Origin: Thermoanaerobaculia bacterium
GTDB lineage: Bacteria; Acidobacteriota; Thermoanaerobaculia; Multivoradales; UBA5704
Assembly (NCBI GenBank): GCA_044866775.1
Contig: JBIOUG010000142.1
Span: 1,847 to 65,846, forward strand
Length of the DNA stretch: 64,000 nt
Direction of reading: 5' to 3'
Under the pieces are notes generated by a model. The model was not told the DNA's origin. It saw only the letters and a program-made list of their open reading frames with translations, and made no database searches. The position numbers and the translations under genes are program-made. This document shows positions 5,200-52,404 of the stretch, one piece after another; position 1 is the first letter of the stretch; each line of letters opens with the position of its first letter.

Positions 5200-5345
5200 G
5201 CGCCGGTTTCGCTCAGGGCAAGTGCAGAGCCTGGCTGCCGAGGCTCCCGAAGTCAATGGGGGCAGGTGCTCGCTGCTCGTCGACGACAGGTCCGGTTGTG
5301 GACCGTTTCAGATACGTCCTCTGTCCCTCTAAGGAGAACTCAAGG

Positions 5346-6704
5346 ATGAGCAAGAGAGCGGTTTCCCTCATGGCCGTCCTGCTGCTGCTCGCGGCGGGCG
5401 CGGCATCGGCCGAGCAGTACGTGCTGACGGCTCCCGGCAAGTGGAAGCAGAGCCACAGCGATGCGGTCGCCGCCGCCGGCGGCACCCTGGTGTGGTCGCA
5501 CGGCGGCAGCGGCTTCGGCGTCGCCACCTCGGACAACACCAACTTCCTCGCCAACCTGCAGGCGATCGGCGGCTTCCAGAGCGCGGCGGCCGACATGGTG
5601 GTCGACTGGGTGGGACCGATGGCGGTCGAGGAAGGGCTGACCGACCAGTCGGTGAACACGAGCAACGACCGCTTCTTCCCGATCCAGTGGAACATGCAGG
5701 CCATCCAGGCTCCGGCCGCCTGGGCCGCTGGCTGCACCGGCGACGGCGTGCGGGTTGCGGTCATCGACGGCGGCATCTTCTCCGCGCACCAGGACCTCGT
5801 CGCCAACCTCGACGTCGCCTGCTCGGCCTCGTTTGTCCCCGGCCAACCGTTCAACAACGACACCGGCACCTTCTGGCACGGCACGCACGTGGCGGGCATC
5901 ATCGCTGCGGCGGACAACACCGTCGGCACCGTCGGCGTCGCTCCCGACGCCACGATCATCGGCGTCAAGGCGCTGCACGGCGGCAGCGGCACGTTCGGCG
6001 CCGTCATCGGCGCCATCCTCTACTCCGCCGATCCGGCGGCCTTCGGCGCCACCAGTTGCGCGCGCGCCGACATCATCAACATGAGCCTCGGGGCCCAGTT
6101 CAACATGAACGAGCCCGGCGCCGGCCCCCTGGTTGCGGCGCTCAACCAGGCCGTGAACTTCGCCGGCAGCAAGGGCGTGCTGGTCGTCTCGGCGGCCGCC
6201 AACAGCGGCATCGACTACGGCCAGGCCGGCAACCTCACGGTGACGCCGTGCCAGGCCGGCAGCGGCATCTGCGTCTCGGCGACCGGCCCCATGGGCTTCG
6301 CCCTCGGCGCCACCAACTTCCGCCGTCCCGCCTCCTACAGCAACTTCGGCGAGGGGCTGGTCTCGGTCGCCGGCCCGGGCGGTGACTTCGTGCTGCCGGG
6401 CAGCGCGATCTGCACCATGGCGACCAACGGCGCGCCGACCACCAACTTCTGCTGGGTATTTGACCTGGTGCTCGCCCCCTGCCGCGGCACCACCACCAAC
6501 AACTACTGCTTCGCCGCCGGCACCAGCATGGCGACGCCGGCCACGGCCGGCGTGGCGGCGCTGATCCTGGGCAACAATCCCGGGATGTCGGTTGGCGCCC
6601 TCAAGACCGCCCTCTACCAGAGCGCCGACGACGAGGGCAAGGTCGGCAACGACGAGTTCTACGGTCACGGGTTCGTGAACGCCGCCAACGCCTGCGCGCA
6701 GTAG
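5346..6704 (+). CDS. secreted S8 (subtilisin-like) serine peptidase
   Basis: Signal peptide MSKRAVSLMAVLLLLAAGAASA. Catalytic motifs are VAVIDGGI (Asp), HGTHVAGIIAA (His) and GTSMATPATAG (Ser). Confidence 0.9.
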   Translation: MSKRAVSLMAVLLLLAAGAASAEQYVLTAPGKWKQSHSDAVAAAGGTLVWSHGGSGFGVATSDNTNFLANLQAIGGFQSAAADMVVDWVGPMAVEEGLTDQSVNTSNDRFFPIQWNMQAIQAPAAWAAGCTGDGVRVAVIDGGIFSAHQDLVANLDVACSASFVPGQPFNNDTGTFWHGTHVAGIIAAADNTVGTVGVAPDATIIGVKALHGGSGTFGAVIGAILYSADPAAFGATSCARADIINMSLGAQFNMNEPGAGPLVAALNQAVNFAGSKGVLVVSAAANSGIDYGQAGNLTVTPCQAGSGICVSATGPMGFALGATNFRRPASYSNFGEGLVSVAGPGGDFVLPGSAICTMATNGAPTTNFCWVFDLVLAPCRGTTTNNYCFAAGTSMATPATAGVAALILGNNPGMSVGALKTALYQSADDEGKVGNDEFYGHGFVNAANACAQ

Positions 6705-12320: not shown

Positions 12321-12347
12321 CGCCCGGCACATGGCCCGGGCGCTACG
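12321..12347 (+). repeat. REP-like element, degenerate copy A
   Basis: cgcccggcacatggcccgggcgctacg. Its CTA (12343..12345) is the TAG stop of the DtxR-family gene. Confidence 0.6.
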
Positions 12348-13011
12348 ACGCCGGCTCGACCAGGATCTTCGAGGCGGCGCGCAGGCCGAGCGAGAGGCGC
12401 TCGCCGCCGTCGAGCAGGTGCAGCTCGACGGCGTCGGCCGCCGGGTCGCGCGACTCGACCTGCAGCCGGCTCCCGGGCTTCAGCCCGCGCCGCTCGGCGA
12501 GCTGCAGGAAGTCGCGGCTCTGGTCCTCGATCCGCGCCACCCGCAGCGGCTGCCCGAGCGCGCAGTCGGCGAGGCTCGCCAGCACCGGCGCCTCGACGAC
12601 GCCGTGCGCGTCCGGGATCGGATCGCCGTGCGGGTCGGCGGAGGGGAACCCCAGCATCTCGTCCATGCGCTCGACCAGCCGGTCGGAGACCGCGTGCTCC
12701 ATGCGCTCGGCCTCGGCGTGGACCTCGCTCCAGTCCATCCCCATGACGTTGACCAGGAAGAGCTCGATCAGGCGGTGGCGGCGCAGGACGTGCGCGGCGA
12801 GCTGGCGGCCCGGCGGGGTGAGGAGGACGCCGCTGTAGGGCTCGTAGGCGAGGAGGCCGCTATCGGCCAGGGTCTTGACCATCGCCGTCACCGTGCCCGG
12901 CGAGACGCCGAGACCGGTCGCGATCTGTCCCATGGTCACCAGCGCGCCCGGCGCCCGCTGCTCCTCGAGCAGGATGCACTTCAGGTAGTCCTCGACGGTG
13001 CTGGTGGGCAT
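12343..13011 (-). CDS. DtxR/MntR-family metal-dependent transcriptional regulator (with C-terminal FeoA/SH3-like domain)
   Basis: STVEDYLKCILLEEQ...GTVTAMVKTLADSGLL...RRHRLIELFL...GMDWSEVHAEAERMEHAVS...DPHGDPIP. Confidence 0.9.
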   Translation of the reverse strand: MPTSTVEDYLKCILLEEQRAPGALVTMGQIATGLGVSPGTVTAMVKTLADSGLLAYEPYSGVLLTPPGRQLAAHVLRRHRLIELFLVNVMGMDWSEVHAEAERMEHAVSDRLVERMDEMLGFPSADPHGDPIPDAHGVVEAPVLASLADCALGQPLRVARIEDQSRDFLQLAERRGLKPGSRLQVESRDPAADAVELHLLDGGERLSLGLRAASKILVEPAS

Positions 13012-13093: not shown

Positions 13094-13125
13094 GAAAACG
13101 CCCGGGACGTGGCCCGGGCGCTACG
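13094..13125 (+). repeat. REP-like element copy B (gaaaacgcccgggacgtggcccgggcgctacg)
   Basis: 8-bp stem CGCCCGGG/CCCGGGCG with loop ACGTGG. Its CTA (13121..13123) is the TAG stop of lanB. Confidence 0.85.
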
Positions 13126-16100
13126 GGGCGGTCACCGCCAGGCGCTCGGCGGGAGCTGCGGTCGTCTTCGCGGCGGCCCCGGCCTTGCGGGCGCGCGCCT
13201 GCTGCGAGCGGTAGAGCTGGACCAGGAAGTCGTAGAGCACCATCTCGTGCTCGGGTCCGGCCGAGCGGCTGAGCCGGTTGACGAACATGTGGACGTAGCT
13301 CGGCACGATCTCGGCGAGCTGCGGCCGCAGCCGGCCGCGGCGATCGCGGGCGTGGAGCTCGGCGACGACCGGCGCCAGCGCCGCCGAGCGCCGGGCCAGG
13401 GCGGCGAGCCCGGGCTGGGCCTCCTCCGGCATCCCCTCGCGGCCGGCGAGGAGGCGCTCGAGCGCCGCGCGCAGCGGCCGCAGCCGGTCGGCCACCGGCT
13501 CGCGCAACGCCTCGTGGCGCCAGCGCCCGGCGACGCCGGCGCGGCCCCGCTCCGCCAGCCGCTGCTTGGCTTCGAGGTCGTAGCCGAGGTCGTCGAGCAG
13601 GCGATCCATGCCGGCGAGGATCAGGCGCCAGCGCAGGTCGGCACCGGCGTCGCTGGTGAGCGACTCGAGCATGGCGACCACCGCCTCGCTGTCATGGAAG
13701 AAGAGCTCCTCCGCCAGCTCGATGCCGCCGTCGCCGCCGTAGCGCTCGACCTCGCGCTCGTAGGTGTCGAGCTGGCATTTCCAGGCCGAGCCGGCGTCGA
13801 GCAGCCGGGCGAAGGCGTCCTCGAGCAGCGGCTGCACCTCCGCGCGCAGCCGCTCGGGGGCGCCGCGGAAGCGCACCCGCAGGTGCCAGTGCGGATCGCT
13901 GAAGCGGATGAAGAACCAGCCGTCGGCGGCGCCGGCCGCGAGCGCCCGGCGGGCGAGCGGCCCGATCTCGTCGCGCAGCACCTGGTCGGCGGTCGCGGTG
14001 CCGGCGTAGAGCTTGGCGTAGAGCCAGGCGGAGCCGGGCGGGAAGGTCCGCGCCGGCGCCGCGCCGGGCTCGGCGCGTGCCGCGGGCGGCGGGACCTCGA
14101 CCAGCGAAAGCTCGGCTCGCGGCGCGGCGACTTCCGCGGCCGGCCGCCGCACGAACGGCACGACGATCTCGTGAAAGAACCGCCCCTCGGGCCCTTCGGC
14201 GCACAGCTCGTCGGGCGTCGGATAGAGCTCGGTGAGCACGACCTCCTCGCGGCTCTTGACCAGGTCGACCACGGCGTCGAGAGAGAGCGGGTTCGCGAAG
14301 TCGAGCAGCAGCTCGTTGTCGCCGTCGACGAGGGCGACGAAGCGCGGCATCCGCCGCTCGCGCCGCCACTGCTGCGCCAGCCGGTAGCGCGCGGCGCCGG
14401 TCGCCTTGGCCAGCGGCTCGAGGTCGCTCTTGAGCAGCAGCCAACGCGCACGCGAGAGCACCAGCCGTCCCGTCACCACGCGCGGCAGGAACGGCGCCGC
14501 CGCGAGAGCGCCCCAGCTCCAGGTCGCGCCCCCCATGCGCCCTTGGCCCTGGAGCGAGGCGAGGAAGCGATAGAGGCCGAGGCTCTCGCGGGCGGTGTTG
14601 TGGGCGTTGGTCAAGCGCGGGACGACCTCGCGCCCGAGGCGCCGCGAGCGCAGGCGGATGCGCTCGCCGAGCACGGTGACCAGCAGGTCGTCGGCCGGGA
14701 TCTGGCCCTCCGGCGGCACTCCGGAGCGGCCGAGGAAGGGGATCTCGTAGCGGCGCAGCAGCGGCCGGGCGAGGATGTTGCCGATGCGGCCCTCGGGCAG
14801 GTGCACGATCTCGGCGAAGACGGCGTCCGGCGCCAGCGCCTCCTCCGCCGCCAGGTGCGCCTCGACCCCGGCGCGCAGCTCCTCGTCGATGTGGCAGAAG
14901 CGGCCGAGGATGCGCGCCCCCGAGGGTCCGGCGGCGTGCTCGACGATGAGCCGGAAGTCCCCCCGCTCGAGCGCCTCGGGCGAGCCGGCGACGAGCGTCG
15001 CCATGGCGTGGAAGGCGTCGGGTAAGGGTGGCCGCTCGGGGATCTCCAGCCGCTCGAGGTCGCCGTCGCCGAGCGCCATCTCGGTCTTACCGCTGCCGAG
15101 CGTCTCGGCGAGGAGCCGCAGCAGGATCGCCTCGCGGCGGGCCCAGGCGGTCGTCGGGCGCTCGACGCGGGGCCGGAAGACGAGGCCCGAGAGCAGCGGC
15201 GAGGCCTCCGCCGCCGCCTGGTTTGAGCGCTCGTAGCCGATCCCGCTCTCCTCATCCAGGGCGGCGAGCAGCGGCACCTCCCGCCCCTCGCCGTAGCGGT
15301 CGCGGAAGGTATTGCGGAAGTCCTCGAGCGGGCCGCCTCCCCAGGCCGCGGCGACGCGGTGCAGGATCTCGACGCCGCGCAGGATCTCGGCGGCGACGGC
15401 CTGGTCGACGGCGACCTCGCGCGCCGGCTTGACCAGGTCGACCTGGAAGAGGCGCGACATCTCGACCGGCACGCCCAGCGGCTCGAGCGCGCGGGCGATC
15501 TCGCCGTAGCGCGCGGCGGGCGAGCCGAGGCCGCCGGCGTCGATCTCCGCCAGCGCGCGCTCGGCGCCCGCCAGGCGCTCCGCGGCCGCGGCGGCCGGGG
15601 GCAGCTCGGCGAGCTGGCGCAGGAGCCCCGGGGTGCTCTCCTCGCCGGTCACCGGCAGGGCGAGCTCGGGGAGCAGGATCTGATTGTCCACGAGGTCGTG
15701 GAGGAAGGCCTCGGCGTCGTCGAGGGTGATCTCGCCTTCGGGATCGTCGGCGACCAGCGCCGCGGCGAGGTCGCGCAGCCGGGCGCCGCCGGCGGCGCGC
15801 TCGAGGGTGCTCGCCAGGGCGTCGAAGGCGTCGACGGCGACCAGGTGGTAGGTGCGCAGGCGTCCGGCCAGGCGCGCCTCGGCGTAGCGCAGCCGCCCGG
15901 CGGCCGCGTGGAGACTCGAGTTCGGACGGAAGAGGATCTCGGTGCGCACCGCGGCGTCGCGCGTCAGGTGGTCGCAGAGCGCGAAGAGGTAGTCCATGTC
16001 GAGGCGGCTGTGCCGGCGATAGGCCCGGCGCTCGGCGACCGCGAGCCGCCGGCCGTCGCCGACCGTGCCGGCCGTGCAGCCGGAGAAGAGACCGAAGGGA

Positions 16101-16441
16101 GTCGGCCGCGAGGCCATGCGCAGGAAGTAGCGCACCAGGCCGTGCTCGGTCCGCGCGCCCTTCTTGCCCTCGGGCTCGCGGTGCCAGTGACCGAGGCTCT
16201 GCACGAGGTCCGGCGAGGCGAGGAAGATCGCCTCGGCGATCTCGGGCCGCTCGAGCAGCGCGCGCAGGCGCTCGCGGAGGAGAGCGCGGTCGCGGGCAAG
16301 CGCCGCGGCCAAGGCGGCCTCGTCGTCCCCGGCCTCGGGGGCCAGCAGGTCCGCGCTCCAGGCCTCGATCTCCTCGAAGGGGAGGAGCGGTGTGCGCAGC
16401 ACGAGGACGCCGGAGGCGGCGTAGTCCTGGTCGAGGCTCAT
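13121..16441 (-). CDS. lanB: class I lanthipeptide dehydratase LanB (full length, N-terminal glutamylation + C-terminal elimination domains)
   Basis: LVLRTPLLPFEE, FLASPDL, YFLRMASRPTPFGLFSG (Lant_dehydr_N) and WFFIRFSDPHWHLRVRF (SpaB_C/Lant_dehydr_C). 1106 aa. The ATG at 16441 overlaps the lanC stop (ATGA). Confidence 0.92.
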   Translation of the reverse strand: MSLDQDYAASGVLVLRTPLLPFEEIEAWSADLLAPEAGDDEAALAAALARDRALLRERLRALLERPEIAEAIFLASPDLVQSLGHWHREPEGKKGARTEHGLVRYFLRMASRPTPFGLFSGCTAGTVGDGRRLAVAERRAYRRHSRLDMDYLFALCDHLTRDAAVRTEILFRPNSSLHAAAGRLRYAEARLAGRLRTYHLVAVDAFDALASTLERAAGGARLRDLAAALVADDPEGEITLDDAEAFLHDLVDNQILLPELALPVTGEESTPGLLRQLAELPPAAAAAERLAGAERALAEIDAGGLGSPAARYGEIARALEPLGVPVEMSRLFQVDLVKPAREVAVDQAVAAEILRGVEILHRVAAAWGGGPLEDFRNTFRDRYGEGREVPLLAALDEESGIGYERSNQAAAEASPLLSGLVFRPRVERPTTAWARREAILLRLLAETLGSGKTEMALGDGDLERLEIPERPPLPDAFHAMATLVAGSPEALERGDFRLIVEHAAGPSGARILGRFCHIDEELRAGVEAHLAAEEALAPDAVFAEIVHLPEGRIGNILARPLLRRYEIPFLGRSGVPPEGQIPADDLLVTVLGERIRLRSRRLGREVVPRLTNAHNTARESLGLYRFLASLQGQGRMGGATWSWGALAAAPFLPRVVTGRLVLSRARWLLLKSDLEPLAKATGAARYRLAQQWRRERRMPRFVALVDGDNELLLDFANPLSLDAVVDLVKSREEVVLTELYPTPDELCAEGPEGRFFHEIVVPFVRRPAAEVAAPRAELSLVEVPPPAARAEPGAAPARTFPPGSAWLYAKLYAGTATADQVLRDEIGPLARRALAAGAADGWFFIRFSDPHWHLRVRFRGAPERLRAEVQPLLEDAFARLLDAGSAWKCQLDTYEREVERYGGDGGIELAEELFFHDSEAVVAMLESLTSDAGADLRWRLILAGMDRLLDDLGYDLEAKQRLAERGRAGVAGRWRHEALREPVADRLRPLRAALERLLAGREGMPEEAQPGLAALARRSAALAPVVAELHARDRRGRLRPQLAEIVPSYVHMFVNRLSRSAGPEHEMVLYDFLVQLYRSQQARARKAGAAAKTTAAPAERLAVTAP

Positions 16442-17697
16442 CGCGCGCCGTTCCCGCTCGACAGCAGCATCACCCGATCCCACGCCGGCTCGACGTCGCT
16501 CACCGCCGCGAGCAGCGCCAGCCCGACGCCGGCCGCGCCGTTCAAGAAGCTGGGGTCGGCCCGCCAGGCGTCGCCGTTGACCGCGTCGCTGATCCAGTTG
16601 AGGTACCCCGCGATGCCCTGCCCCGGGCGCCGGATCGCCAGCGTGTGCTCGAGCCACTCGAGAGCGGCCGCCTTGAGCAGCGGATCGCCGGTCGCGTGGT
16701 GGAGGCGCAGGAACATGTGACTGATGCCGGCGGTGCCGTGGCAGAGACAGGCGTCGACGACCCGTCCGGCCTGGGGCGTCCGCCCCGCCGCGAGATGGGC
16801 GAGGGCGATGGCCTCGCGCTCCCACTCCGGGCGGTCGAAGCTGCGCGCCGCCGCGAGCAGGACGGCGGCGATGCCGAGATCGCCGTAGCACCAGCCGGTG
16901 CGCGACGGCACGGGCTCGGCGTCGGGGATGAGGAAGGCGGGAAACACGGAGTCGCCGCCCGCGGGCAGCCGCTGGGCGAAGAGCCAGCGCACGGCGCCGT
17001 CGGCCAAGCGCGGGAGGCGCGGGTCGTTGACGCCGGCGCGCTGCGCGGCGGCGAGGAAGCCGAGGACGCCGGGGATGCCGTGGGCGACGCCGAGGTTGTA
17101 GCAGCCGTTCCGGAACTGCGGCCGGCGCAGCGAGATCCATTCCGGGATGGTCCACCAGGTACACCCGGCCGCGGTCTCCTGGACCGTCGCCTCGAGGTGG
17201 TCGACGACGCAGGTCAGCAGCTCGCGGGCGTCCGGATGCGGCAGCCGCTCGAGCAGGTAGATGCCGAAGCCCGCGACGCCGCGGACGATCTCGAACGGCA
17301 TGATCGCGCGCCGGTTGGCGAGGAAGGCGCGAAGCGCCGCGTCGATCTCGGTCATGTCGTCGTCGCCGCCGAAGAACTCGCGGGTCAGGTGCGTGCTGAC
17401 CCAGCCGACGCCGCAGAACCCGCTGTAGAGCGACGGCTCGAGCGGAGCGTCGGCCATGGCCTCGATGGCGTCGCCCAGGATGTCGAGCGCGCGCTCGGCG
17501 GCGCCCGCATCGGGCCGTGCCGCCTCGAGGTAGGCGAAGAACAGCGCCAGCCCCATCTTGCCGCCGGAGAGCATCGGGTCCGCCAGGTTGACGTCGGGCA
17601 CGACGGAGGCCACGTCGCCGGCGAGGGCGCGCTCGATCTCCTCGATCGAGGCCCAGGCGCGGCGGCTGGTGTCGGCGTCGGTGATCGGTTGCCACAT
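16438..17697 (-). CDS. lanC: lanthionine cyclase LanC
   Basis: GVAHGIPG, GWCYGDLG and CLCHGTAG are the LanC zinc-ligand and acid/base motifs. ATG at 17697 is preferred (GAGGTGA 6 nt upstream); the track starts at GTG 17706. Confidence 0.92.
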   Translation of the reverse strand: MWQPITDADTSRRAWASIEEIERALAGDVASVVPDVNLADPMLSGGKMGLALFFAYLEAARPDAGAAERALDILGDAIEAMADAPLEPSLYSGFCGVGWVSTHLTREFFGGDDDMTEIDAALRAFLANRRAIMPFEIVRGVAGFGIYLLERLPHPDARELLTCVVDHLEATVQETAAGCTWWTIPEWISLRRPQFRNGCYNLGVAHGIPGVLGFLAAAQRAGVNDPRLPRLADGAVRWLFAQRLPAGGDSVFPAFLIPDAEPVPSRTGWCYGDLGIAAVLLAAARSFDRPEWEREAIALAHLAAGRTPQAGRVVDACLCHGTAGISHMFLRLHHATGDPLLKAAALEWLEHTLAIRRPGQGIAGYLNWISDAVNGDAWRADPSFLNGAAGVGLALLAAVSDVEPAWDRVMLLSSGNGAR

Positions 17698-17723
17698 CGG
17701 TCTCACCTCGAAATTTACGGAGT

Positions 17724-17765
17724 GCCGGCCGGGGCCGCACGGAGCTCGCGGCGGTCCCGGCCGGC
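17724..17765 (-). promoter_or_regulatory. strong intercistronic stem-loop between lanA and lanC
   Basis: GCCGGCCGGG+GCCGC / GCGGC+(ggt bulge)+CCCGGCCGGC gives 15 bp of stem with a 9-nt loop. On the mRNA it is followed by ACUCCGUAAAUUU (weak U tract). Confidence 0.55.
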
Positions 17766-17817
17766 GGAACGCTTCAGGAGAGCTCGCCCGAGCTCAGGCG
17801 GGCTCCCCCGGATCGGC

Positions 17818-18018
17818 TCAGCAGCAGTTGGAACAGTCGGTCGTGTAGCCGGTGCAGCTGTCCGTCGCGCAGTGACACTCGCTGGCGTAGGTACAGCCGC
17901 TGGTGGTGCCGCAGCAGGTGGTGGTCGCGCCGCCGACCGCCGCCGCGAGCTCGCGCTCGGACAGGTTGCGGAGCGTCTCCTTGCTGAGGCTGAGCCTTCT
18001 GCCGATCTGCTTCTTCAT
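17818..18018 (-). CDS. lanA: lanthipeptide precursor LanA (30-aa GG leader + 36-aa Cys/Ser/Thr-rich core)
   Basis: MKKQIGRRLSLSKETLRNLSERELAAAVGG | ATTTCCGTTSGCTYASECHCATDSCTGYTTDCSNCC. SD AAGGAG lies 6 nt before the ATG, and the gene sits between lanT and lanC. Confidence 0.88.
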   Translation of the reverse strand: MKKQIGRRLSLSKETLRNLSERELAAAVGGATTTCCGTTSGCTYASECHCATDSCTGYTTDCSNCC

Positions 18019-18163
18019 CTACATCTCCTTTGGACTGCGGTTGGGCGGTGCCTGCCGCCGGCTCGGACCCGGCGCTCTCCCTGTCCCCGCGCGGACTGGA
18101 GCAGGAGATCGCTCGGCCGGAGCTGGAGCGGCGCATGCACCGCGGTTGACCGGAGGCGGGCGC

Positions 18164-21472
<3,309 letters not shown>

Positions 21473-21562
21473 GGAACTCCGTTGAGATCGACGAACAGGA
21501 TCGTTTCACGTTATCGACATATACGCACGTCACGAGCTTCGCGTCCAAGCCCGCCGGCTGCC

Positions 21563-21576
21563 TGCCGGCGCCGGCA
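21563..21576 (-). terminator. GC palindrome between the MBL hydrolase gene and lanT
   Basis: TGCCGGC|GCCGGCA is a perfect 14-bp palindrome ~110 nt after the upstream stop. No clear U tract. Confidence 0.3.
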
Positions 21577-21683
21577 AGCGGCTCCATTGCGAAGATGCGC
21601 GAAATGGGGGCTGAAATCTGTCAGGCGCCGGCAACTTGGGGTGGCGAGCCGAGAGTCGAAGGCGGGCGCGAGGCCCGGCGCGC

Positions 21684-22397
21684 TCAGTAGCTCTCGCCGG
21701 GCCGAAGCGCCACGACCTCGCAGCGCACGCCGAGGTCCTCGAGCGCCGTCTCGAGCTGCTGCGGGGTGCCGGTCAGGGCCGGGAAGGTGCCCCAGTGGAT
21801 GGGGATGACCTTGCGCACGCCGAGATAGCGGCAGGCGCGCGCCCCCTGGTGCGGGTCCATCGTGTAGAGGTCGCCGATCGGCAGGAAGGCCAGCTCGGGG
21901 CGGTAGAGCTCGCAGATGAGCTGCATGTCGGAGAAGAGCGCGGTGTCGCCGGAATGGTAGAAGGTGAAGCCGCCGGGGAGGCGCACGACGTACCCGGCCG
22001 CCTGGCCGCCGTAGAGGATCTGGTCGCCGTCCTGGATGCCGCAGGAGTGGTCGGCACGCACCATCGTCACCTGCAGGCCGAGCACCTCCTGCGTGCCGCC
22101 GAGGTTCATGCCGGAGCAGTTCTCGACGCCTTTGCTCTCGAGCCAGGCGCAGCACTCGAAGCAGGCGACCACGCGGCGCGGCCGGTGACGCTTGGCGAGC
22201 TCGACGGCGTCGCCGATGTGGTCGAAGTGGGCGTGCGTGACGAGGATCGCGTCGAGGCGGGGGAGCTGCCGCCAGCGCTCGGGGCAGGTCGGGCTCTGGA
22301 GCCAGGGGTCGATGAGCAGGATCTCGCCCCCCGGCAGCTCGCAGTGGACCGTGGCGTGGCCGAGCCAGGTGAACTTCGGTCGCGGATGCTGGTTCAT
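21684..22397 (-). CDS. metal-dependent hydrolase, MBL fold (UPF0173-like)
   Basis: KFTWLGHATV...DAILVTHAHFDHIGD...FYHSGDTALF...IPIHWGTFP. Confidence 0.8.
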   Translation of the reverse strand: MNQHPRPKFTWLGHATVHCELPGGEILLIDPWLQSPTCPERWRQLPRLDAILVTHAHFDHIGDAVELAKRHRPRRVVACFECCAWLESKGVENCSGMNLGGTQEVLGLQVTMVRADHSCGIQDGDQILYGGQAAGYVVRLPGGFTFYHSGDTALFSDMQLICELYRPELAFLPIGDLYTMDPHQGARACRYLGVRKVIPIHWGTFPALTGTPQQLETALEDLGVRCEVVALRPGESY

Positions 22398-22503: not shown

Positions 22504-22851
22504 TCAGATGTTGAACTGGCGCAAGAAGTTCTCGCGCAGCTTCTGGTTGAACTGATGGTCCGTCAGCCGGTAGTAGATGGTCTGCGCGTCACGCCGCGGC
22601 GCCACGAGGCCGTAGGCCTTGAGCTTCGCGAGGTGCTGGGAGACGGCGGAGACGGAGACTCCGAGCATCTCGGCCAGGTCGCAGACGCACAGCTCTTTCA
22701 TGTTCTCGAGCAGATAGAGGAGCTTGAGCCGGGTGGAGTTCCCGGCCAGGTTCATCAGCTCCGCCGCTTCCTCGATGTCCGGTGTGCCCTCGAGCTGGGC
22801 ACGCATGTGGGCCATCTCCTTCTGGGTCATGGTGGGCGCCTCGCCTTTCAT
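22504..22851 (-). CDS. ArsR/SmtB-family metalloregulator
   Basis: TRLKLLYLLENMKELCVCDLAEMLGVSVSAVSQHLAKLKAYGLV is a wHTH with the ELCVCDL metal(loid)-sensing motif. Confidence 0.85.
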   Translation of the reverse strand: MKGEAPTMTQKEMAHMRAQLEGTPDIEEAAELMNLAGNSTRLKLLYLLENMKELCVCDLAEMLGVSVSAVSQHLAKLKAYGLVAPRRDAQTIYYRLTDHQFNQKLRENFLRQFNI

Positions 22852-25217: not shown

Positions 25218-27425
25218 TCAGTCCTCCTCCGGCCGCGGCGCGTCGTCGCCGCGCGGCGCCAGCGCCGCCGCCTTGCCGATCAGGCTCACCAGCTCGGAGA
25301 CGCGCTGGTCGCCGGGGAAGGCGTCGGCGACCCGCTGGGCGCGGCGGGCGAGCGCGTCGAGGTCGCCGTCCTTGGCCCAGTAGGAGTGGCGCAGGATCTC
25401 GGCGAACTCGCCGACGATCGCGGCCAGCCGCAGACCGCGCGGCGCGCTCTCCCAGGTGCGCGCCATGTCGGCGGCGCGCAGCACCTGCTCCTCCTCCGTG
25501 AACTGCTGCGTGCGCGCCGACTTCCAGCGCAGCCGCAGGACGGCTCCCGGCAGCCCGGCGGGCGCCTCCGGCTGGAGCTTGATCTCGTAGAGCGCGGTCA
25601 CGCCGTGCCCGGCGCCGATCTCGCCGGCGTCGACCGTGTCGTCGCGGAAGCGATGGTCGGCGATGTCGCGGTTCTCGTAGCCGAGCAGGCGGTAGCGCGC
25701 CACCACCGCCGGGTTGAACTCGACCTGCACCCGCGCCTCGGAGGCGACCGTCTGCAGCGTTCCGGTCAGGTCCTCGACGAACACCCGCCGCGCCTCGTCG
25801 AGCGTGTCGACGTAGGCGTAGCGGCCGTCGCCCTTGTCGGCGAGCTGCTCCATCAGCACGTCGTTGTAGTTGCCCATGCCGAAGCCGACGGTGGTCAGCT
25901 CGATGCCGCGGTCCGCGGCCTGGCCGATGCGCGCCAGGATCGACTGCGGGCCGGTGGCGCCGACGTTGGCGACGCCGTCCGAGCAGAGGATGACGCGGTT
26001 GAGGGCGCCGCGGCGGAAGGCGCGGTCGGCCAGCTCGTAGCCGAGCACCAGCCCCTCCTCGGCGTTGGTCGAGCCCTCGGCCACCAGGCGGTCGACGGCG
26101 CGGCCGATCGCCGCCTTGTCGCTCGTGTGCTCGAGGAGCACCCGCCCCTCGCTGCCGTAGACGACCAGCCCCACCCGGTCCTCGGCGCGCAGCTCGCCGA
26201 GCAGCAGGCCGAGCGCGCGCTTGACCAGCTCGAGGCGGTTCTCGTAGTCCATCGACCCCGAGACGTCGACGACGAAGGTCAGGATCGCCGGCTTGCGGTC
26301 GGCGGCGGAGACCTCGCGCGCCCGCAGGTTGAAGCGCAGCAGGCGGTAGCGCTCGCCGCCGGCGAAGGGCGACGGCGCGCCCTCGACGTGGATCGCGAAG
26401 TCGCCGGAGCGCGGCGGCGCGTCGCCGTAGGCGAAGAAGTTGACCATCTCCTCGACCCGCACCGCCTCGGGGGGCGGCAGGTGGCCGTCGGCGAGGTAGC
26501 GGCGCACCACCGTGTAGGAGGCGGTGTCGACGTCGAGGCCGAAGGTCGAGAGGCGGTCGTCCTCGGTGTCGATGAACGGGTTGACGCCGTAGGTGCGGAA
26601 GAAGACGTCGCCGTACGGCTCGTCGTTGGGCTCGGCCGTGCCGCCGGTCGAGGGCTCCATCTCCTTGCTCTCGCCGAGGCGGCCGAGGCGCAGCGGCGCG
26701 TCGGCGGCCATCGTCTTCGGCGACGAGGGCACGCCGGCGATCATCCCGCCGGGCGTGCCGCCGGGCACACCGCCGGCGACGCCGCCCACGACGCCGCCCA
26801 CGACGCCCTGCGGCTTCGGCGCGACCGCGGCACGCTGCTTGGCCGCCTCCCGCCGCCGCTCCTGGAGCTGGCTCTCGGCGGTGGTCGTCACCTCGTCCTC
26901 GGCGGCGAGCAGCTCAGGCACCTCCACGGGCTGCGCCGCCGCCATCGGCGGTGGCGGCGCGCCGGCCTCGTTGCGCGCTCCGAGATCGAAGCGCCGCCCA
27001 TCGCTCTCGACGCCAGCGGCCTCACGCGACGCCGCCGAGGGAGCCATCTCGGGCTCCGGCCGCCGCGAGGCGGCCGCCGGCGGCCGCGGCATGCGCTCCG
27101 CCACGCCGGCACCGGCCTCCGGCGCCGCCGCCGGGCGCTCCGAAAGCTCCAGCTCTCCGGGCGCCGCCGCCTGCCGCCGCACCTCGAGAGCCAGGAACCC
27201 GCCCAGCAGCGCCACCGCGATCGACGCCGCGAGCAGCCACAGCCGCCGGCCGCCGAAGGCGCGGGGGCGCACGTCCTCACGCGCCGCCGTCGCCACCAGG
27301 CGCAGCCGCGCGCCGGGGTCCTCGGGGATCTCGGCGCGCAGCCGCGCCAGCAGCTCCGCCGGGGGCTCCACGTCGTCTTGCGCCGCCAGCCGGCGGGCGA
27401 TCTCGCGCTCGTTGAGCCTGCTCAT
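25218..27425 (-). CDS. membrane-anchored anti-sigma-like protein with extracytoplasmic vWA domain (YfbK/BatA-like)
   Basis: ATGA overlap with the ECF sigma gene. One TM (LWLLAASIAVALLGGFLAL), a Gly/Val-rich linker, FVVDVSGSM...GSTN (MIDAS), and a C-terminal DUF3520-like region (YRLLGYENR). Confidence 0.8.
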   Translation of the reverse strand: MSRLNEREIARRLAAQDDVEPPAELLARLRAEIPEDPGARLRLVATAAREDVRPRAFGGRRLWLLAASIAVALLGGFLALEVRRQAAAPGELELSERPAAAPEAGAGVAERMPRPPAAASRRPEPEMAPSAASREAAGVESDGRRFDLGARNEAGAPPPPMAAAQPVEVPELLAAEDEVTTTAESQLQERRREAAKQRAAVAPKPQGVVGGVVGGVAGGVPGGTPGGMIAGVPSSPKTMAADAPLRLGRLGESKEMEPSTGGTAEPNDEPYGDVFFRTYGVNPFIDTEDDRLSTFGLDVDTASYTVVRRYLADGHLPPPEAVRVEEMVNFFAYGDAPPRSGDFAIHVEGAPSPFAGGERYRLLRFNLRAREVSAADRKPAILTFVVDVSGSMDYENRLELVKRALGLLLGELRAEDRVGLVVYGSEGRVLLEHTSDKAAIGRAVDRLVAEGSTNAEEGLVLGYELADRAFRRGALNRVILCSDGVANVGATGPQSILARIGQAADRGIELTTVGFGMGNYNDVLMEQLADKGDGRYAYVDTLDEARRVFVEDLTGTLQTVASEARVQVEFNPAVVARYRLLGYENRDIADHRFRDDTVDAGEIGAGHGVTALYEIKLQPEAPAGLPGAVLRLRWKSARTQQFTEEEQVLRAADMARTWESAPRGLRLAAIVGEFAEILRHSYWAKDGDLDALARRAQRVADAFPGDQRVSELVSLIGKAAALAPRGDDAPRPEED

Positions 27426-28036
27426 CGGACCTCCTCCTCGAGCGCAACGGCCAGTGCCTGCAACGCCCGCTTCAGTCGCTTGCGGATCGCCGGCCCGGTG
27501 ACCCCTTCGTGCCGCGCCACCTCCGCTACCGACCGTTCGCCCCAGAAGAGCGCCGTCACCGTGAAGCGCAGCTCCTCGGGCAGGGCGAGCACGGCCCGCC
27601 GCAGGCGCTCGCCGACCATCGCGTCCCCCACCCGCTCGTCGGCGCCGGGCCCGGGATCGGGCAGCGCCTCCCCCTGTTGCTCGTCGAGCGGCACCAGGCG
27701 GCGCGGCCGGCGCAGGTGGTTCAGGAAGGTGGTGTAGGCGATGCGGCAGAGCCAGGTCGAGAAGCGGGAGCGCCCGTTGAAGGTGTCGAGCGCCGCCCAG
27801 GCGCGGCGGTAGGTCTCCTGCGTCAGGTCGGCGGCCAGCTCGGGGTCGCCGGCCAGGCGGCGCAGGAAGTTGAAGACGCCGCGGTAGGTGCGCTCGACGA
27901 GCAGCTCCGCCGCCCGCCGGTCGCCGGCCGCGAGGTCCGCCAGCAGGCGGCGCTCGTCGGCGGCCTCGGCGCGGTGGTCGGCGCTCATCTCGGGTCGCGG
28001 GAAGACCGCTGTGCGTGTGGTGTCCATCCTGGCCAC
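27422..28036 (-). CDS. ECF-type RNA polymerase sigma factor
   Basis: Region 2 is YRGVFNFLRRLAGDPELAADLTQETYRRAW, and region 4 is LPEELRFTVTALFWGERSVAEVARHEGVTGPAIRKRL. The exact start is uncertain (GTG 28036, ATG 28027 or 27988). Confidence 0.85.
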   Translation of the reverse strand: MARMDTTRTAVFPRPEMSADHRAEAADERRLLADLAAGDRRAAELLVERTYRGVFNFLRRLAGDPELAADLTQETYRRAWAALDTFNGRSRFSTWLCRIAYTTFLNHLRRPRRLVPLDEQQGEALPDPGPGADERVGDAMVGERLRRAVLALPEELRFTVTALFWGERSVAEVARHEGVTGPAIRKRLKRALQALAVALEEEVR

Positions 28037-28081
28037 TTAGACACGACGGCCCCGCCGGTAGGAAACCGCAGCCCGGAGGGA

Positions 28082-28113
28082 CGTAGCGCCCGGGCCACGT
28101 CCCGGGCGTTTTC
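28082..28113 (-). repeat. REP-like element copy C (reverse orientation)
   Basis: cgtagcgcccgggccacgtcccgggcgttttc is the exact reverse complement of copies B and G. Confidence 0.85.
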
Positions 28114-28539
28114 GCGCCGCCGCCCCGATCCCTCCTCAGGCCAGCGCCGCTGCGGCCGGCGCTCCGGCGGCCCGCGAGTGCTGGCGGGCGCGCACGCCGC
28201 TGGCGACGATCGCCGTGTAGAGGCCGTGCTGCGGCGGGACGCCCGAGGCGGGAGTGTACCCCGCAGAGCGCTGCGTGTCCGACGCCACAGCGGCATCATG
28301 GGGTGTTGTGAGAAGCGGCTCTCCGTCCGTCTAAGCTGCCGATGAATCCGTGGTCGCCAAGGTCGAAATCAGGATGGGTGGCACCGCCGCCGGCGGGTCC
28401 GTTCTACCCAGCGCCTGCCGCGCCGCGGCTAGGTGCTATCCTTGATTGCGAACCAACGAGAACCCGGGTCGCCGCACGCGACGCGAATCACCGCCGCCGT
28501 GCGGAGGCGCCCTGTCCCTCGGCAGGGCACGAGGACGAA

Positions 28540-31500
28540 ATGCGCAGGCTGCACGATTTGGCTGCCTCGATCGTGGTCGCCGGTCTGTTCGCCTCTCTCG
28601 GTTGCGATCCTGCCGCTGTTGAGCATCACTCCGCGAGTGGCCTCACGGCGGAGCACCGCGACCTTCTGCGCGCCCTCGCCGGCTCCCGCCCGCTGCGACC
28701 GCGGCTCGTCGGGCTGAGCCGCTGGTCTGCCTGCGCCCCCTCCGGACCCGCCGAGACGGTGAGCGACAACAGCGGATGCGCCGGTGACCCCCTCTCTTCC
28801 CGGCGATCGAGGGCGCTCTCCGCTGGCCGCGGAATCGAGAACGCCGCCCGGCACCAGTCGACGGGTCCCACCCTCCATGCGCTCGGCGTGTGGGTGCTCC
28901 TCCGCTCCCGTCGCGCCGAGATGCTCGACGACGCCGTTGCGCACCTCGAGCTGGCGGCAGGGTACTCGCCCGCGAACGGAGAGATCTGGAGCGATCTCGC
29001 GGCGGCCTACTACGTCCGGGCGCGGCGACTCCGGCGCCCGGAGGACCTGGTGCGCTCCCTTGCCGCGGCCGATCGGGCGCTGCAGGCCGCGCCCGGATTG
29101 GCGCCCGCCCTCTTCAATCGCGCCCTGGCTCTGCAGGCGCTGTTCCTGCGCGACGAGGCGATCGCGGCCTGGGAGGCGTTTCTCGCCTCCGGCGACGCGC
29201 GCGCATGGCGCGAGGAGGCACGCGCCCATCGCGCCCGGGCGGCGCGCCGAGCGGTGCTGCCGCGACGTCTGTCGGCGGGCATCCTGCAAGCCGGCGCGGC
29301 CCTCTCGTCACGGGACGCGGCCGCGGCCGTTGCGGCAGATCCGTTCGACGCGCTGCAGTTCGCGGAGCTCCACCTGCTCGGAGATCTCGGCTCTGTCGTC
29401 TCCGCGCAAGGGATTCTCGCCAACGCGCGAATGGTGGCGGCGGCGCTCCTCCACGTCAGCGGCGATCGCCAGCTCGATGCGGAGCTGAAGACGTGGGAGC
29501 GAGCGCTCGACGCCCCCGGCAGCGCCGCCCAGCGCGAGCGACTCCGGGCCGGCTACGCGAGCTACCGCGAGGCGCGCGGACTGTACGATGAGCTCGAGAC
29601 CCGACGCGCCGCGCCCCTCTTCGCGCAGGCCGCGCGCGAGCTCCGTGCCGCCGATAGTCCCCTCCACCTCTGGGCTCTCTATTACGCCGCGGTGTGCAGC
29701 TACTGGGAGGGCGATCTCGGGACGGCGGCGGCGGCCCTCGAGCTCCTGCGCACCGCGGCGAACGACCGGCAGTACCGGATCCTCAAAGGCTACGCCTCCT
29801 GGATGGTCGGACTGATCGCGGCCAACGAGGGCGACTTCGATCGCGCCTTCGATCAATACCGCGATGCCCTCGCCACCTTCGAGAGCGCGGGTCTCGTGAA
29901 CGAGGAGGGTTCGATCCGCGTCCAACTTTCGCAGGTGCTCCGCTTCATCAACGATCCCCGCGCGAGCTGGCGGCATCTCTACCGCGCTCTGGCCGAGGTG
30001 GATGCATGGCGGAGCGACAAGTGGCGCAACGCCCTGTTCGACGAGATCGCCGCGTGCGTCAGCGCCCGCGGGAATCCGGAAACTGCCCTTTACTTCCAAC
30101 GGCGCGCGGTGGCGGCGGCGGTCGCCGGCGGGCAGCCCGTGGTGATCAGCCAGGCCTACGCCCAGCGCTCGTTGACGTTGCGGGCGATGGGCCGGACGGC
30201 GCTCGCGCGAGCCGACGCCACCAGGGCGCGGGAAGGGCTCGAACGCATCACCGATCCCGCCGCACGGCGCCAGGCCGAAGCCGTCGTCCTGGTGACGGAG
30301 GCGCGCCTCGACCTGGGCGGAGACCCGGAAGTCACCGTGGAACGCCTCTCCGCGGCCGTGCGTGACCGCCGGCGCCGGGGAGCGTCCACCCTGCTGCCCG
30401 AGCTGCAGCTCGAGCGCGCTCGGCTGCTGGCTTCGCTCGGCAGAGCCGACGCGGCGGAGGCGGCATTGCTGGAGGCGATCGAGGCGGTCGAGGCCGGCAG
30501 CAGGCACCTCGACACCGGGCAGCGGCGCAGCGCCTACATCACGGGGTCGCGGGCGGTCTTCGATGGCATGATTCGCTTCCAGCTCGACATCCGCCACGAT
30601 GACCGGGCCGCGCTCCTCTTCGCCGAGCGGGCGCGCGTCCACGAGTTCTTCCCCGAGTCGGCGCGCGGCGCGATCTCGCACGCCGGTCTGAACGCTCTCC
30701 AGACCCGACTCCCACCCGCCTCTGCGGTCCTCGTGTATCACGTTCTCGACGATCGCCTTCTCGTCTGGCTCATTCGGCGGCGAGCGGTCTCCTTTCACCT
30801 GCAAGAGGTCTCCTCCTCGCTGCTCGCGGTGCAGGTGGAGAACTTCGCCCGAAGCCTCCGTCATGCGACGACCGCCGCCGTGGTGAGGGAGTGGGCGACG
30901 CGCCTCTATGAGAGCCTCGTCGCGCCGATGGCGGCCTCCTTGGCCGGTGTCGAGCGACTCTGGGTGGTTCCCGACGGCGCGCTCTTCGATCTGCCCTTCG
31001 GCGCTCTCGTCGAGCCGGCCTCCAACCGTCCTCTCATCACGCGGCACCAGATCATCAAAGCCCTCACTGCGGGCATCGGGACGACCGCCGGGCCTCCACC
31101 GCCGGCCGTGCGGCAGGCCCCCGACCACGCGCTGGTGATCGGCGATCCGGCCTTCGATCGCCAGCGCTACCAGGAGCTGCCGGCGCTCCGCTGGGCGCGT
31201 CGAGAGGCCTCCGCAGTGGCTGCCGCCTACCCCGATGCGGAGGTCCTCGTCGGTGAGGCAGCAACCCGTAGCCGCCTCCTGGCGGAGCTGGCCCGGTGGG
31301 AGGTCGTGCATCTCGCGACCCACGCCGTGGCGAATCGCGACACTCCCGAGCTGTCGATGCTCGTCCTGGCTCCGGATGCGCAGGCGCATGGCGGAGCGAT
31401 CTATGCGCGCGACATCGAGCGGTTGTCCCTCCAGGGTGTGCGCCTGGTCGTCCTCGCGGCCTGCGGGACGGCGGCGGCCGCCGACGGTGGCGGCGGCTCG

Positions 31501-52300: not shown

Positions 52301-52367
52301 CGGCTGACCTCCGGCGTGCGGCGCGCTGCTGCTCGGTTGCCGCGGATTATCGATCAAGCGGGCCCGG

Positions 52368-52383
52368 CGCGAAAGCTTTCGCG
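52368..52383. promoter_or_regulatory. perfect 16-bp palindrome in the divergent patatin / K+ channel intergenic region
   Basis: CGCGAAAG|CTTTCGCG lies 22 nt upstream of the channel GTG. It is related to the 20-nt hairpin at 61273 and 62063. Confidence 0.35.
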
Positions 52384-52404
52384 TCTCGACCATAGAATGA
52401 CCGC

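What the first reader, a model, noticed from the sequence alone, without database searches (positions are those of the whole stretch)
17818..18018. Precursor peptide with an exceptionally crosslink-dense core: 9 Cys + 14 Ser/Thr in 36 residues
I translated this directly from the DNA. The 30-aa leader is MKKQIGRRLSLSKETLRNLSERELAAAVGG and ends in a double glycine. The 36-aa core is ATTTCCGTTSGCTYASECHCATDSCTGYTTDCSNCC. In the core, 23 of 36 residues are potential (methyl)lanthionine partners. There are vicinal Cys pairs at core positions 5-6 and 35-36. There is no Lys or Arg, and the core is net acidic (E17, D23, D31). If all Cys are used, up to nine thioether rings are possible, which is far denser than nisin-type peptides. 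The C-terminal CC without a LanD enzyme and the CC doublets raise the possibility of labionin-like, disulfide or other non-canonical bridges. The leader lacks the FNLD-type box expected for LanB recognition. It carries LSLSKETLRNL instead, which (from memory) resembles GG-type leaders of Bacteroidota RiPP precursors.
Basis: seen in the sequence. Interest (0 to 1): 0.85.

Follow-up and report, generated by a model that had tools for sequence, protein, structure and literature searches.

The report
Cysteine-rich class I lanthipeptide precursor gene
This is a real, strongly conserved gene for the precursor of a ring-forming (lanthipeptide) natural product in an uncultured, probably acidobacterial, genome; it belongs to an already catalogued leader family, and its nine cysteines are at the high end of that family but not unique in it.

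Summary
The ORF exists exactly as described, but on the minus strand (17818..18018). It has a 30-aa leader ending in GG and a 36-aa core with 9 Cys and 14 Ser/Thr.

It lies in a four-gene operon: a GAF-C39-ABC exporter, lanA, lanC and a full-length lanB. The leader scores above the curated cut-off of NCBIfam NF038153 ("class I lanthipeptide"). It also carries the LxLxKx5L...GG motif published for Bacteroidetes class I precursors.

The gene is under strong purifying selection. A relative whose LanC is 82% identical shows 20 synonymous and 0 non-synonymous codon differences.

The leader family is large: 3,595 cluster representatives. Its LSKETLRNL branch is found mainly in Thermoanaerobaculia and other Acidobacteriota MAGs. 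Close relatives have a median of 7 Cys and a maximum of 10, and half end in CC. The density is therefore a trait of the clade, although it exceeds the seven bridges of any characterised lanthipeptide.

Nothing supports labionin or AviCys chemistry. Vicinal CC in ordinary thioether rings has precedent.

Verdict: a new member of a known kind, of moderate interest.

Two side observations may be worth more. The core and LanC are replaced together in otherwise equidistant syntenic loci. The exporter carries a fused GAF domain.

The parts
17818..18018 (-). lanA: 66-aa class I lanthipeptide precursor. The leader (aa 1-30) is at 17929..18018, the core (aa 31-66) at 17821..17928 and the stop codon at 17818..17820.
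   Evidence: Translation. NCBIfam NF038153 scores 34.1 bits against a cut-off of 22. There are 44 close homologues. 20 synonymous and 0 non-synonymous codon differences against L002.
18025..18030 (-). Shine-Dalgarno sequence AAGGAG, 6 nt upstream of the lanA ATG.
   Evidence: Read directly from the sequence. It is conserved in L002 (alignment).
17698..17817 (-). lanA-lanC spacer with two G+C-rich hairpins. It is a candidate attenuator or mRNA-stabilising structure.
   Evidence: RNA fold of -68.2 kcal/mol, z = -2.99. No U-tract terminator was found. The stems are conserved in L002, with one compensatory change. The function is inferred only.
16438..17697 (-). lanC cyclase, 419 aa from the ATG at 17697. 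The ORF lister gives a GTG start at 17706.
   Evidence: PF05147, E = 1.2e-36. Best PDB match is MadC, 8byk. His209, Trp272-Cys273-Tyr274 and Cys322-His323 are present. The identical contig L001 was called as 419 aa.
13121..16441 (-). lanB, a full-length dehydratase of 1106 aa. Its ATG overlaps the lanC stop codon (ATGA).
   Evidence: PF04738, E = 1.8e-171, and PF14028, E = 1.3e-61. Best PDB match is MibB, 5ehk, E = 8e-60. Start codon mapped.
18164..21472 (-). lanT: a peptidase-containing ABC exporter of 1102 aa from the ATG at 21472 (alternative GTG at 21394). The parts are a GAF-like N-terminal region (about aa 27-364), the C39 peptidase (aa 376-504, at 19961..20347), the transmembrane domain and the ATPase.
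   Evidence: Pfam C39, ABC_membrane and ABC_tran. Gln380, Cys386, His460 and Asp476 are present. 70% identical to the separate PCAT of L003 from residue 363 onward. Residues 27-364 match the N-terminal half of L003's HlyD-type adaptor. The 78%-identical orthologue P0193 hits Pfam GAF above the cut-off.

Best explanation
The ORF is the structural gene (lanA) of a class I lanthipeptide from the LxLxKx5L / double-glycine leader family. The host is an uncultured high-GC bacterium, probably Thermoanaerobaculia (Acidobacteriota).

Proposed mechanism:
1. The basic 30-aa leader, with its LSLSKETLRNL box, recruits the full-length LanB. LanB dehydrates Ser/Thr of the acidic 36-aa core through glutamyl-tRNA-dependent glutamylation and elimination.
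2. The zinc-dependent LanC adds Cys thiols to the resulting dehydro residues, forming (methyl)lanthionine rings.
3. The C39 domain of the ABC exporter cuts after Gly29-Gly30, and the transporter exports the polycyclic core.

The product is predicted to be a compact, acidic peptide with at least seven and up to nine thioether rings, which would exceed the seven bridges of any characterised lanthipeptide. It has a conserved N-terminal two-ring module (xTTxCxGTTSxCT) and a more variable C-terminal part. Any Cys left unbridged would be free or in a disulfide.

The most likely role is a secreted antagonistic or competition peptide.

What is shown: the gene is real and under selection, it belongs to this leader family, and intact LanB, LanC and C39-ABC genes with catalytic residues are present in conserved order.

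What is inferred: every chemical step, the number and pattern of rings, and the biological activity.
For: - The sequence and counts were verified.
- The leader hits NF038153 above the cut-off. Relatives carry Pfam PF28317, Lant_leader_dom.
- The leader fits the LxLxKx5L...GG motif, with an associated C39 protease, described for class I LanAs in PMC7268733. That paper's supplement contains a similar leader.
- The operon is T-A-C-B, with an ATGA overlap between lanC and lanB.
- The catalytic and zinc-ligand residues of LanC and the Gln/Cys/His/Asp of C39 are present.
- Exporter, lanA, lanC and lanB occur together in 16 related loci, most in the same T-A-C-B order.
- Selection is purifying: 20 synonymous and 0 non-synonymous differences over 66 codons against L002, of which 13 and 0 fall in the core, while the adjacent LanC is only 82% identical.
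- Three natural variants (L039, L037, P0002) keep every Cys of the shared scaffold.
- A published simple pairing rule can place all nine Cys in rings.
- Eight subclade members keep core T2, T3, C5, G7, T8, T9, S10, C12, T13, C25 and the last Cys invariant.
Against: - There are no expression or chemical data.
- No member of this acidobacterial clade has been characterised in the searched literature.
- Relatives P0006 and P0008 have more Cys (10) than Ser/Thr (8), so in this family not every Cys can be a thioether.
- The second Cys of the first doublet (C6) is replaced by Ser or Gly in subclade relatives.
- Thr29, a rule-predicted ring partner, is Gly in L037 and L039, so the exact ring pattern is uncertain.
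- No HlyD-type adaptor, immunity genes or dedicated regulator lie next to the operon.
- The net negative charge is atypical of pore-forming lantibiotics.
Confidence: 0.85

Rival explanations
1. It is the same precursor and enzymes, but the mature product is a mixed lanthionine and disulfide (or free-thiol) peptide. Only about five to seven Cys form thioether rings. The rest, for example C6 and one Cys of the terminal doublet, form a disulfide or stay reduced.
For: The core has nine Cys, an odd number. Relatives P0006 and P0008 have 10 Cys but 8 Ser/Thr, so at least two Cys there cannot be thioethers. C6 is Ser or Gly in related cores. The pairing rule used here mis-assigns complex peptides, according to its own authors.
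Against: The window's core has 14 Ser/Thr for 9 Cys, and every Cys can be paired at a normal spacing. All nine Cys are kept in the L037 and L039 variants. Vicinal Cys both form lanthionines in the lacticin 481 family.
Confidence: 0.45
2. It is a chance ORF, or a decaying remnant that is no longer the substrate. The true precursor would be encoded elsewhere.
For: Spurious ORFs are very common in 72% GC DNA: 144 ORFs of at least 40 aa occur in 24 kb. The copy of Pfam available here gives no hit for the peptide.
Against: A curated leader HMM is passed. Third-position GC is 0.93 and a Shine-Dalgarno sequence is present. There are 20 synonymous and 0 non-synonymous differences. Gene order is conserved across related loci. 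It is the only ORF in the window that carries the leader motif.
Confidence: 0.02
3. The modified peptide is not an antibiotic. It is instead a metal-binding or signalling peptide, as suggested by the Cys/His/Asp/Glu-rich acidic core flanked by ArsR- and DtxR/MntR-type metalloregulators.
For: An ArsR-family gene lies at 22504..22851 and a DtxR/MntR-family gene at 12343..13011, on either side of the operon. The core charge is about -3. Some members of this leader family show no reported antibacterial activity (PMC9680876).
Against: The two regulators are kept only in the syntenic close relative L035. They are absent next to the homologous clusters L003, L036, L038 and L039 (and the tblastn). They are therefore neighbours of the insertion site, not parts of the cluster. 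Cys converted to thioethers bind metals poorly (general chemistry).
Confidence: 0.1

Closest known systems
Class I lanthipeptides with an LxLxKx5L / double-glycine leader: pinensins, Ped15.1/15.2, thalassomonasins and viridisins (PMC7268733, PMC9680876), covered by NCBIfam NF038153 and Pfam PF28317
   Same: The leader motif and GG cleavage site are the same. LanB and LanC are separate proteins. A C39 peptidase is encoded in the cluster, and the producers are Gram-negative-type bacteria.
   Different: The host clade is Acidobacteriota/Thermoanaerobaculia rather than Bacteroidota or Gammaproteobacteria. LanB is full-length, not split as for pinensin. The core has 9 Cys in 36 residues, whereas VdsA1 carries four dehydrations and two unambiguously assigned rings. 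The exporter carries an N-terminal GAF-like region.
Nisin/subtilin/geobacillin I-type class I lantibiotics
   Same: Both use LanB dehydration and LanC cyclisation. Both have a conserved N-terminal ring module followed by a variable tail. Geobacillin I and elgicin hold the record of seven bridges among characterised peptides.
   Different: There is no FNLD/FxLD leader box. The lipid II motif SxxxCTP(G/S)C is absent. The leader is removed by a C39-ABC exporter, not a LanP subtilase. The core is acidic, not cationic.
Lacticin 481 / estercin A family (class II)
   Same: Both have a GG leader cut by a C39-ABC exporter. In that family an invariant C-terminal double Cys has both residues in ordinary (methyl)lanthionine rings (PMC11877530).
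   Different: That family is made by a single LanM enzyme, has three rings and comes from Firmicutes. There is no sequence similarity to this core.
Mersacidin-type lipid II-binding ring (motif TxTxEC, PMC7268733)
   Same: Core residues 13-18, TYASEC, match T...EC, with Glu directly before the ring-closing Cys. The mersacidin sequence CTLTSECIC is recalled from memory and was not verified here.
   Different: The middle Thr is Ala, so the exact motif is not met. The segment is not conserved in subclade relatives. There is no LanD and hence no AviMeCys. This is a weak lead only.
Peptidase-containing ABC transporters (PCAT1, ComA, NHLP-type TIGR03796)
   Same: The C39, transmembrane and ATPase architecture is the same and the catalytic residues are present. 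PDB matches are 4ry2 and 8hf7, and TIGR03796 is the best NCBIfam hit.
   Different: The score is below the TIGR03796 cut-off (654 against 853 bits). An extra N-terminal region of about 340 aa, GAF-like, is carried by a separate HlyD-type adaptor in relatives.

Membership tests
Class I lanthipeptide precursor, LxLxKx5L/GG leader family (NCBIfam NF038153 lant_leader_L1a) | The leader matches the curated HMM at or above its cut-off. | tested here: met
   34.1 bits against a cut-off of 22, E = 2.2e-8; residues 1-30 cover profile positions 1-32 of 32.
Class I lanthipeptide precursor, LxLxKx5L/GG leader family (NCBIfam NF038153 lant_leader_L1a) | The LxLxKx5L motif is followed by a Gly-Gly cleavage site. 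| tested here: met
   L9-S-L11-S-K13-ETLRN-L19 and G29-G30. The motif definition is in PMC7268733.
Class I lanthipeptide precursor, LxLxKx5L/GG leader family (NCBIfam NF038153 lant_leader_L1a) | Separate LanB (glutamylation and elimination domains) and LanC genes lie adjacent. | tested here: met
   PF04738 and PF14028 in one 1106-aa protein; PF05147 in a 419-aa protein with the zinc ligands present.
Class I lanthipeptide precursor, LxLxKx5L/GG leader family (NCBIfam NF038153 lant_leader_L1a) | A C39 double-glycine peptidase is encoded in the cluster. | tested here: met
   PF03412, E = 3e-24, with Gln380, Cys386, His460 and Asp476.
Class I lanthipeptide precursor, LxLxKx5L/GG leader family (NCBIfam NF038153 lant_leader_L1a) | The core contains Cys and at least as many Ser/Thr. 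| tested here: met
   9 Cys and 14 Ser/Thr.
Class I lanthipeptide precursor, LxLxKx5L/GG leader family (NCBIfam NF038153 lant_leader_L1a) | The core is actually dehydrated and cyclised into (methyl)lanthionine. | not testable with these tools
   This needs expression and mass spectrometry or NMR.
Nisin-type class I lantibiotic | An FNLD/FxLD box in the leader. | tested here: not met
   No such motif occurs in residues 1-30.
Nisin-type class I lantibiotic | [quoted passage not shown] | tested here: not met
   A regular-expression search of the core found nothing.
Nisin-type class I lantibiotic | A LanP subtilase removes the leader. | tested here: not met
   The only S8 peptidase is at 5256..6704 on the other strand, about 6 kb beyond lanB's 3' end and about 11 kb from lanA, separated by housekeeping genes. 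The leader ends in GG and a C39 domain is present.
AviCys-containing lanthipeptides (epidermin/mersacidin type) | A LanD flavoprotein decarboxylase acts on the C-terminal Cys. | tested here: not met
   No flavoprotein (PF02441-type) hit among about 46 ORFs of the window scanned against Pfam, and none in related loci.
Labionin-containing class III lanthipeptides | A LanKC synthetase and an SxxSx(2-5)C motif. | tested here: not met
   The only cyclase is a stand-alone LanC; the LanKC model gives just a partial match to the cyclase domain, far below its cut-off. The motif is absent from the core.
Mersacidin-like lipid II binder | The TxTxEC motif. | tested here: not met
   The exact motif is absent; only TYASEC (T...EC) is present, and it is not conserved in the subclade.

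The most novel reading that the evidence does not exclude
All nine Cys are converted to thioether rings by a single LanB/LanC pair. This would give nine rings in 36 residues, including two vicinal-Cys double bridges, and would be the most densely bridged lanthipeptide known. The conserved N-terminal xTTxCxGTTSxCT two-ring module would be a new target-binding pharmacophore. In addition, the cyclase would be specifically matched to the core: lanA core and lanC are exchanged together between otherwise equidistant genomes. That would go against the common view that ring pattern is dictated by the substrate alone.
Probability: 0.2. Interest if true: 0.65.

Novelty: new member of a known kind. Interest (0 to 1): 0.4.

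Why it matters
- The peptide is a well-supported candidate for heterologous expression from an uncultured, biosynthetically little-explored phylum.
- If it is fully cyclised, it would extend the known limit of thioether density from seven bridges to nine.
- The comparative data give a ready-made natural experiment. The same leader, LanB and exporter are paired with different core-plus-LanC cassettes. This bears on whether class I cyclases are tuned to particular ring topologies.
- The GAF domain attached to the export machinery hints at ligand-controlled secretion of a RiPP.

Tried and rejected
- Plus-strand reading of the coordinates: meaningless.
- Pfam scan of the peptide: no hit. The local copy predates PF28317, and the NCBIfam scan succeeded instead.
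- Sigma-70 promoter and intrinsic-terminator scan of 17500..22000: nothing found.
- Search for LanD, LanKC, methyltransferase, Dsb-type or immunity genes among about 46 ORFs of the window: none relevant.
- Metalloregulator link (ArsR, DtxR flanks): rejected, because these flanks are not conserved with the cluster outside the syntenic relative.
- Idea that the GAF-ABC fusion is an assembly or deletion artefact: rejected. At least 11 independent contigs encode the same architecture.
- Literature searches for characterised lanthipeptides with eight or more rings, for Acidobacteriota class I lanthipeptides and for GAF-PCAT fusions: nothing relevant found. The Thermoanaerobaculia paper found concerns class II and III systems.
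- Verification of the mersacidin sequence: not found in the texts opened, so that comparison is marked as from memory.
- Pfam scan of the window's own N-terminal 370 aa of the exporter: no hit. The GAF assignment rests on the orthologue P0193.
- Taxonomy was not tested with a housekeeping gene. 'Thermoanaerobaculia' is inferred from the best named exporter hit and from the distribution of the leader pattern.

Full report
**Observation.** The stated coordinates hold a 66-codon ORF on the minus strand. The plus-strand translation is meaningless.
- The core has 9 Cys, 10 Thr and 4 Ser in 36 residues, no Lys or Arg, and a charge of about -3. The leader is basic.
- In all six frames of the 64-kb window, no other 36-residue stretch has more than 6 Cys.
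- The ORF has the codon-position GC signature of real genes in this 72% GC sequence: GC3 is 0.93.
- An AAGGAG ribosome-binding site lies 6 nt upstream of the ATG.

**Context.** A GC3 frame plot and Pfam/NCBIfam scans define a minus-strand operon.
- 18164..21472 encodes a C39-peptidase ABC exporter.
- 17818..18018 is the precursor.
- 16438..17697 encodes LanC. His209, Trp272-Cys273-Tyr274 and Cys322-His323 correspond to the NisC/MadC catalytic and zinc-binding residues.
- 13121..16441 encodes a full-length LanB. Both Pfam domains are present, MibB is the best PDB match, and its ATG overlaps the lanC stop codon.
- The C39 domain keeps Gln380, Cys386, His460 and Asp476.
- About 46 ORFs across the window were scanned. 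None is a LanD flavoprotein, a LanKC, a methyltransferase or an immunity transporter associated with the operon.
- Two stable G+C-rich hairpins lie between lanA and lanC (z = -3). No canonical promoter or terminator was detected.

**Family.**
- The leader scores 34.1 bits on NCBIfam NF038153 'class I lanthipeptide' (lant_leader_L1a), against a cut-off of 22. Relatives carry Pfam PF28317, Lant_leader_dom.
- The leader fits the LxLxKx5L motif ending in Gly-Gly. Walker et al. described that motif for Bacteroidetes class I LanAs with cluster-encoded C39 proteases (PMC7268733). Their supplement lists, for example, a Spirosoma precursor with KLSLSKETLANMDQLLGG.
- Characterised members of this leader type are the pinensins, Ped15.1/15.2, the thalassomonasins and the viridisins (PMC9680876).
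- A profile of 44 close homologues finds 3,595 cluster representatives at E <= 0.001 among 1.84 billion proteins.
- The exact LSKETLRNL pattern occurs in 29 loci of the GTDB species set. Nearly all are Thermoanaerobaculia, Holophagales or other Acidobacteriota MAGs, plus a few Actinomycetota MAGs.
- The best named hit of the exporter is from a Thermoanaerobaculia MAG at 72% identity. I therefore infer that the window comes from that lineage. This was not tested with a housekeeping marker.

**Is the gene functional?**
- Contig L002, from a different sequencing run, encodes an identical peptide although its LanC is only 82% identical.
- At the DNA level the two lanA genes differ at 20 codons, and all 20 differences are synonymous: 7 in the leader and 13 in the core. 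If roughly a quarter to a third of random substitutions are synonymous, this outcome is vanishingly unlikely without purifying selection on the whole peptide, core included (my inference).
- Exporter, lanA, lanC and lanB occur together in 16 related loci, most in the same order.
- The window contains only one ORF bearing this leader.

**Is the density exceptional?**
- Against characterised lanthipeptides, yes. The literature gives seven bridges as the maximum (geobacillin I, elgicin), with one eight-bridge prediction in Tannerella (PMC11251773). My searches found no report of eight or more rings.
- Within its own clade, no. Among 54 close relatives the median is 7 Cys and the maximum is 10. 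Seven other cores have 9 or 10 Cys, and 26 of 54 end in CC.
- Among the more diverse top-150 representatives the median is 5 and the maximum is 9.
- Cys density is thus a trait of the acidobacterial branch, and the window's peptide sits in its upper tail.

**Ring pattern (inferred).**
- The published nearest-upstream-Ser/Thr rule pairs all nine Cys: T2-C5, T3-C6, T9-C12, T13-C18, S16-C20, T22-C25, T29-C32, T30-C35 and S33-C36.
- Natural variants refine this. L039 and L037 carry the same scaffold with 3-4 substitutions. They keep all nine Cys but replace Thr29 by Gly. C32 is therefore more likely bridged to Thr26.
- P0002 lacks the GYTTDC module and has eight Cys.
- In the eight-member subclade, core T2, T3, C5, G7, T8, T9, S10, C12, T13, C25 and the final Cys are invariant, whereas C6 is Cys, Ser or Gly. 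There is therefore a conserved N-terminal two-ring module and an optional extra Cys.
- Relatives P0006 and P0008 have 10 Cys but 8 Ser/Thr, so some Cys in this family must be free or in disulfides. Nine rings is a ceiling, not a prediction.

**Non-canonical chemistry.**
- There is no labionin motif and no LanKC.
- There is no LanD (Pfam scans above).
- Vicinal Cys need no special chemistry. In the lacticin 481 family an invariant double Cys forms two ordinary lanthionines, as in estercin A with Dha9-Cys25 and Dha16-Cys26 (PMC11877530).
- Residues 13-18 (TYASEC) resemble the mersacidin TxTxEC ring but fail the exact motif, and they are not conserved. I treat this as a weak lead. The mersacidin sequence itself is from memory.

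**Side findings.**
1. The exporter's first ~364 residues (conserved block about aa 27-364) are homologous to the N-terminal half of a separate HlyD-type adaptor in relatives such as L003, while residues 363 onward match their PCAT.
   - The fused form recurs in at least 11 independent contigs, so it is not an artefact.
   - The 78%-identical orthologue hits Pfam GAF above the cut-off, although the window's own segment does not.
   - No adaptor gene lies next to the fused exporter here.
   - I found no literature on GAF-PCAT fusions.
2. L035 is a syntenic orthologous locus: the PTPS, GT2, ArsR and MBL genes, then the cluster, then the DtxR, SQS, M24, RRM and SLT genes.
   - The flanking proteins are 92-93% identical, LanB 84% and the exporter 77%. 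LanC is only 61% identical, and the core is completely different, while the leader is kept.
   - L039 and L037 are equally distant in LanB (84%) and the exporter (77%). They carry the window's core type and have LanC at 80-81%.
   - A windowed comparison shows the extra divergence starts near the 3' end of the exporter gene, spans the core and all of lanC, and stops at the lanC/lanB junction.
   - The core and its cyclase are therefore exchanged, or co-evolve, as a unit.

**Verdict.** The identification as a GG-leader class I lanthipeptide precursor is well supported. The claim of exceptional density is true only relative to characterised compounds. The suggestion of unusual cross-link chemistry has no support, apart from a possible disulfide. 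This is a new, uncharacterised member of a known and already curated family. Interest is moderate, and rests mainly on its value as an expression target and on the core-cyclase co-replacement pattern.

Noticed in passing
window 18164..21472 (-); L003:5818-7611; L035:5130-8357; L036:10001-13306: The lanthipeptide exporter carries a GAF-like N-terminal region of about 340 aa fused in frame to the C39-ABC transporter. In relatives the same region is the N-terminus of a separate HlyD-type adaptor. The fused form occurs in at least 11 metagenomic contigs. No adaptor gene lies next to it in the window, and no literature on this was found.
   Followed up: partly
window 16438..18163 compared with L035:8357-10027 and L039:3572-5272: Three genomes are about equidistant in LanB (84%) and the exporter (77%). 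LanC is 80% identical where the core is the same type but 61% where the core is different. The divergent tract runs from the 3' end of the exporter gene to the lanC/lanB junction. Core and cyclase therefore change together.
   Followed up: partly
window 17698..17817 (-): Two G+C-rich hairpins lie in the lanA-lanC spacer (-68 kcal/mol, z = -3). They are conserved in L002 with one compensatory base-pair change and have no U-tract. They may be an attenuator or an mRNA-stability element.
   Followed up: partly
L036:13692-16373: A related cluster, also with a fused GAF-PCAT and with a 7-Cys core ending in RCC, encodes two LanC paralogues in tandem before LanB.
   Followed up: no
L018, L019, L021, L026, L028 (Actinomycetota MAGs): These loci have the same LSKETLRNL leader but a quite different core type. 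The cores are hydrophobic with periodic Val-Cys repeats (for example TGTILCVDTVVCHSGVCESVVCHDNSLVCL) and barely more Ser/Thr than Cys. Some loci have two precursor copies.
   Followed up: no
L037:3860-8815: In this contig the lanA start is shifted out of frame and lanC and lanB are called as one 1472-aa protein. These are probably indel errors of the assembly rather than biology. The core differs from the window's at four positions, with all Cys kept.
   Followed up: partly
window 5256..6704 (+): An S8 subtilase gene lies about 11 kb from lanA on the opposite strand, separated from it by the SLT, RRM, M24 and SQS_PSY genes. It is unlikely to be a LanP, but this was not excluded.
   Followed up: no
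window 25218..31755: An ECF-type sigma factor (27422..28036) and a vWA/YfbK protein (25218..27425), both on the minus strand, lie next to a 1137-aa CHAT-domain protein on the plus strand (28342..31755). Several large neighbouring ORFs (for example 49400..52393, 997 aa) have no Pfam match.
   Followed up: no
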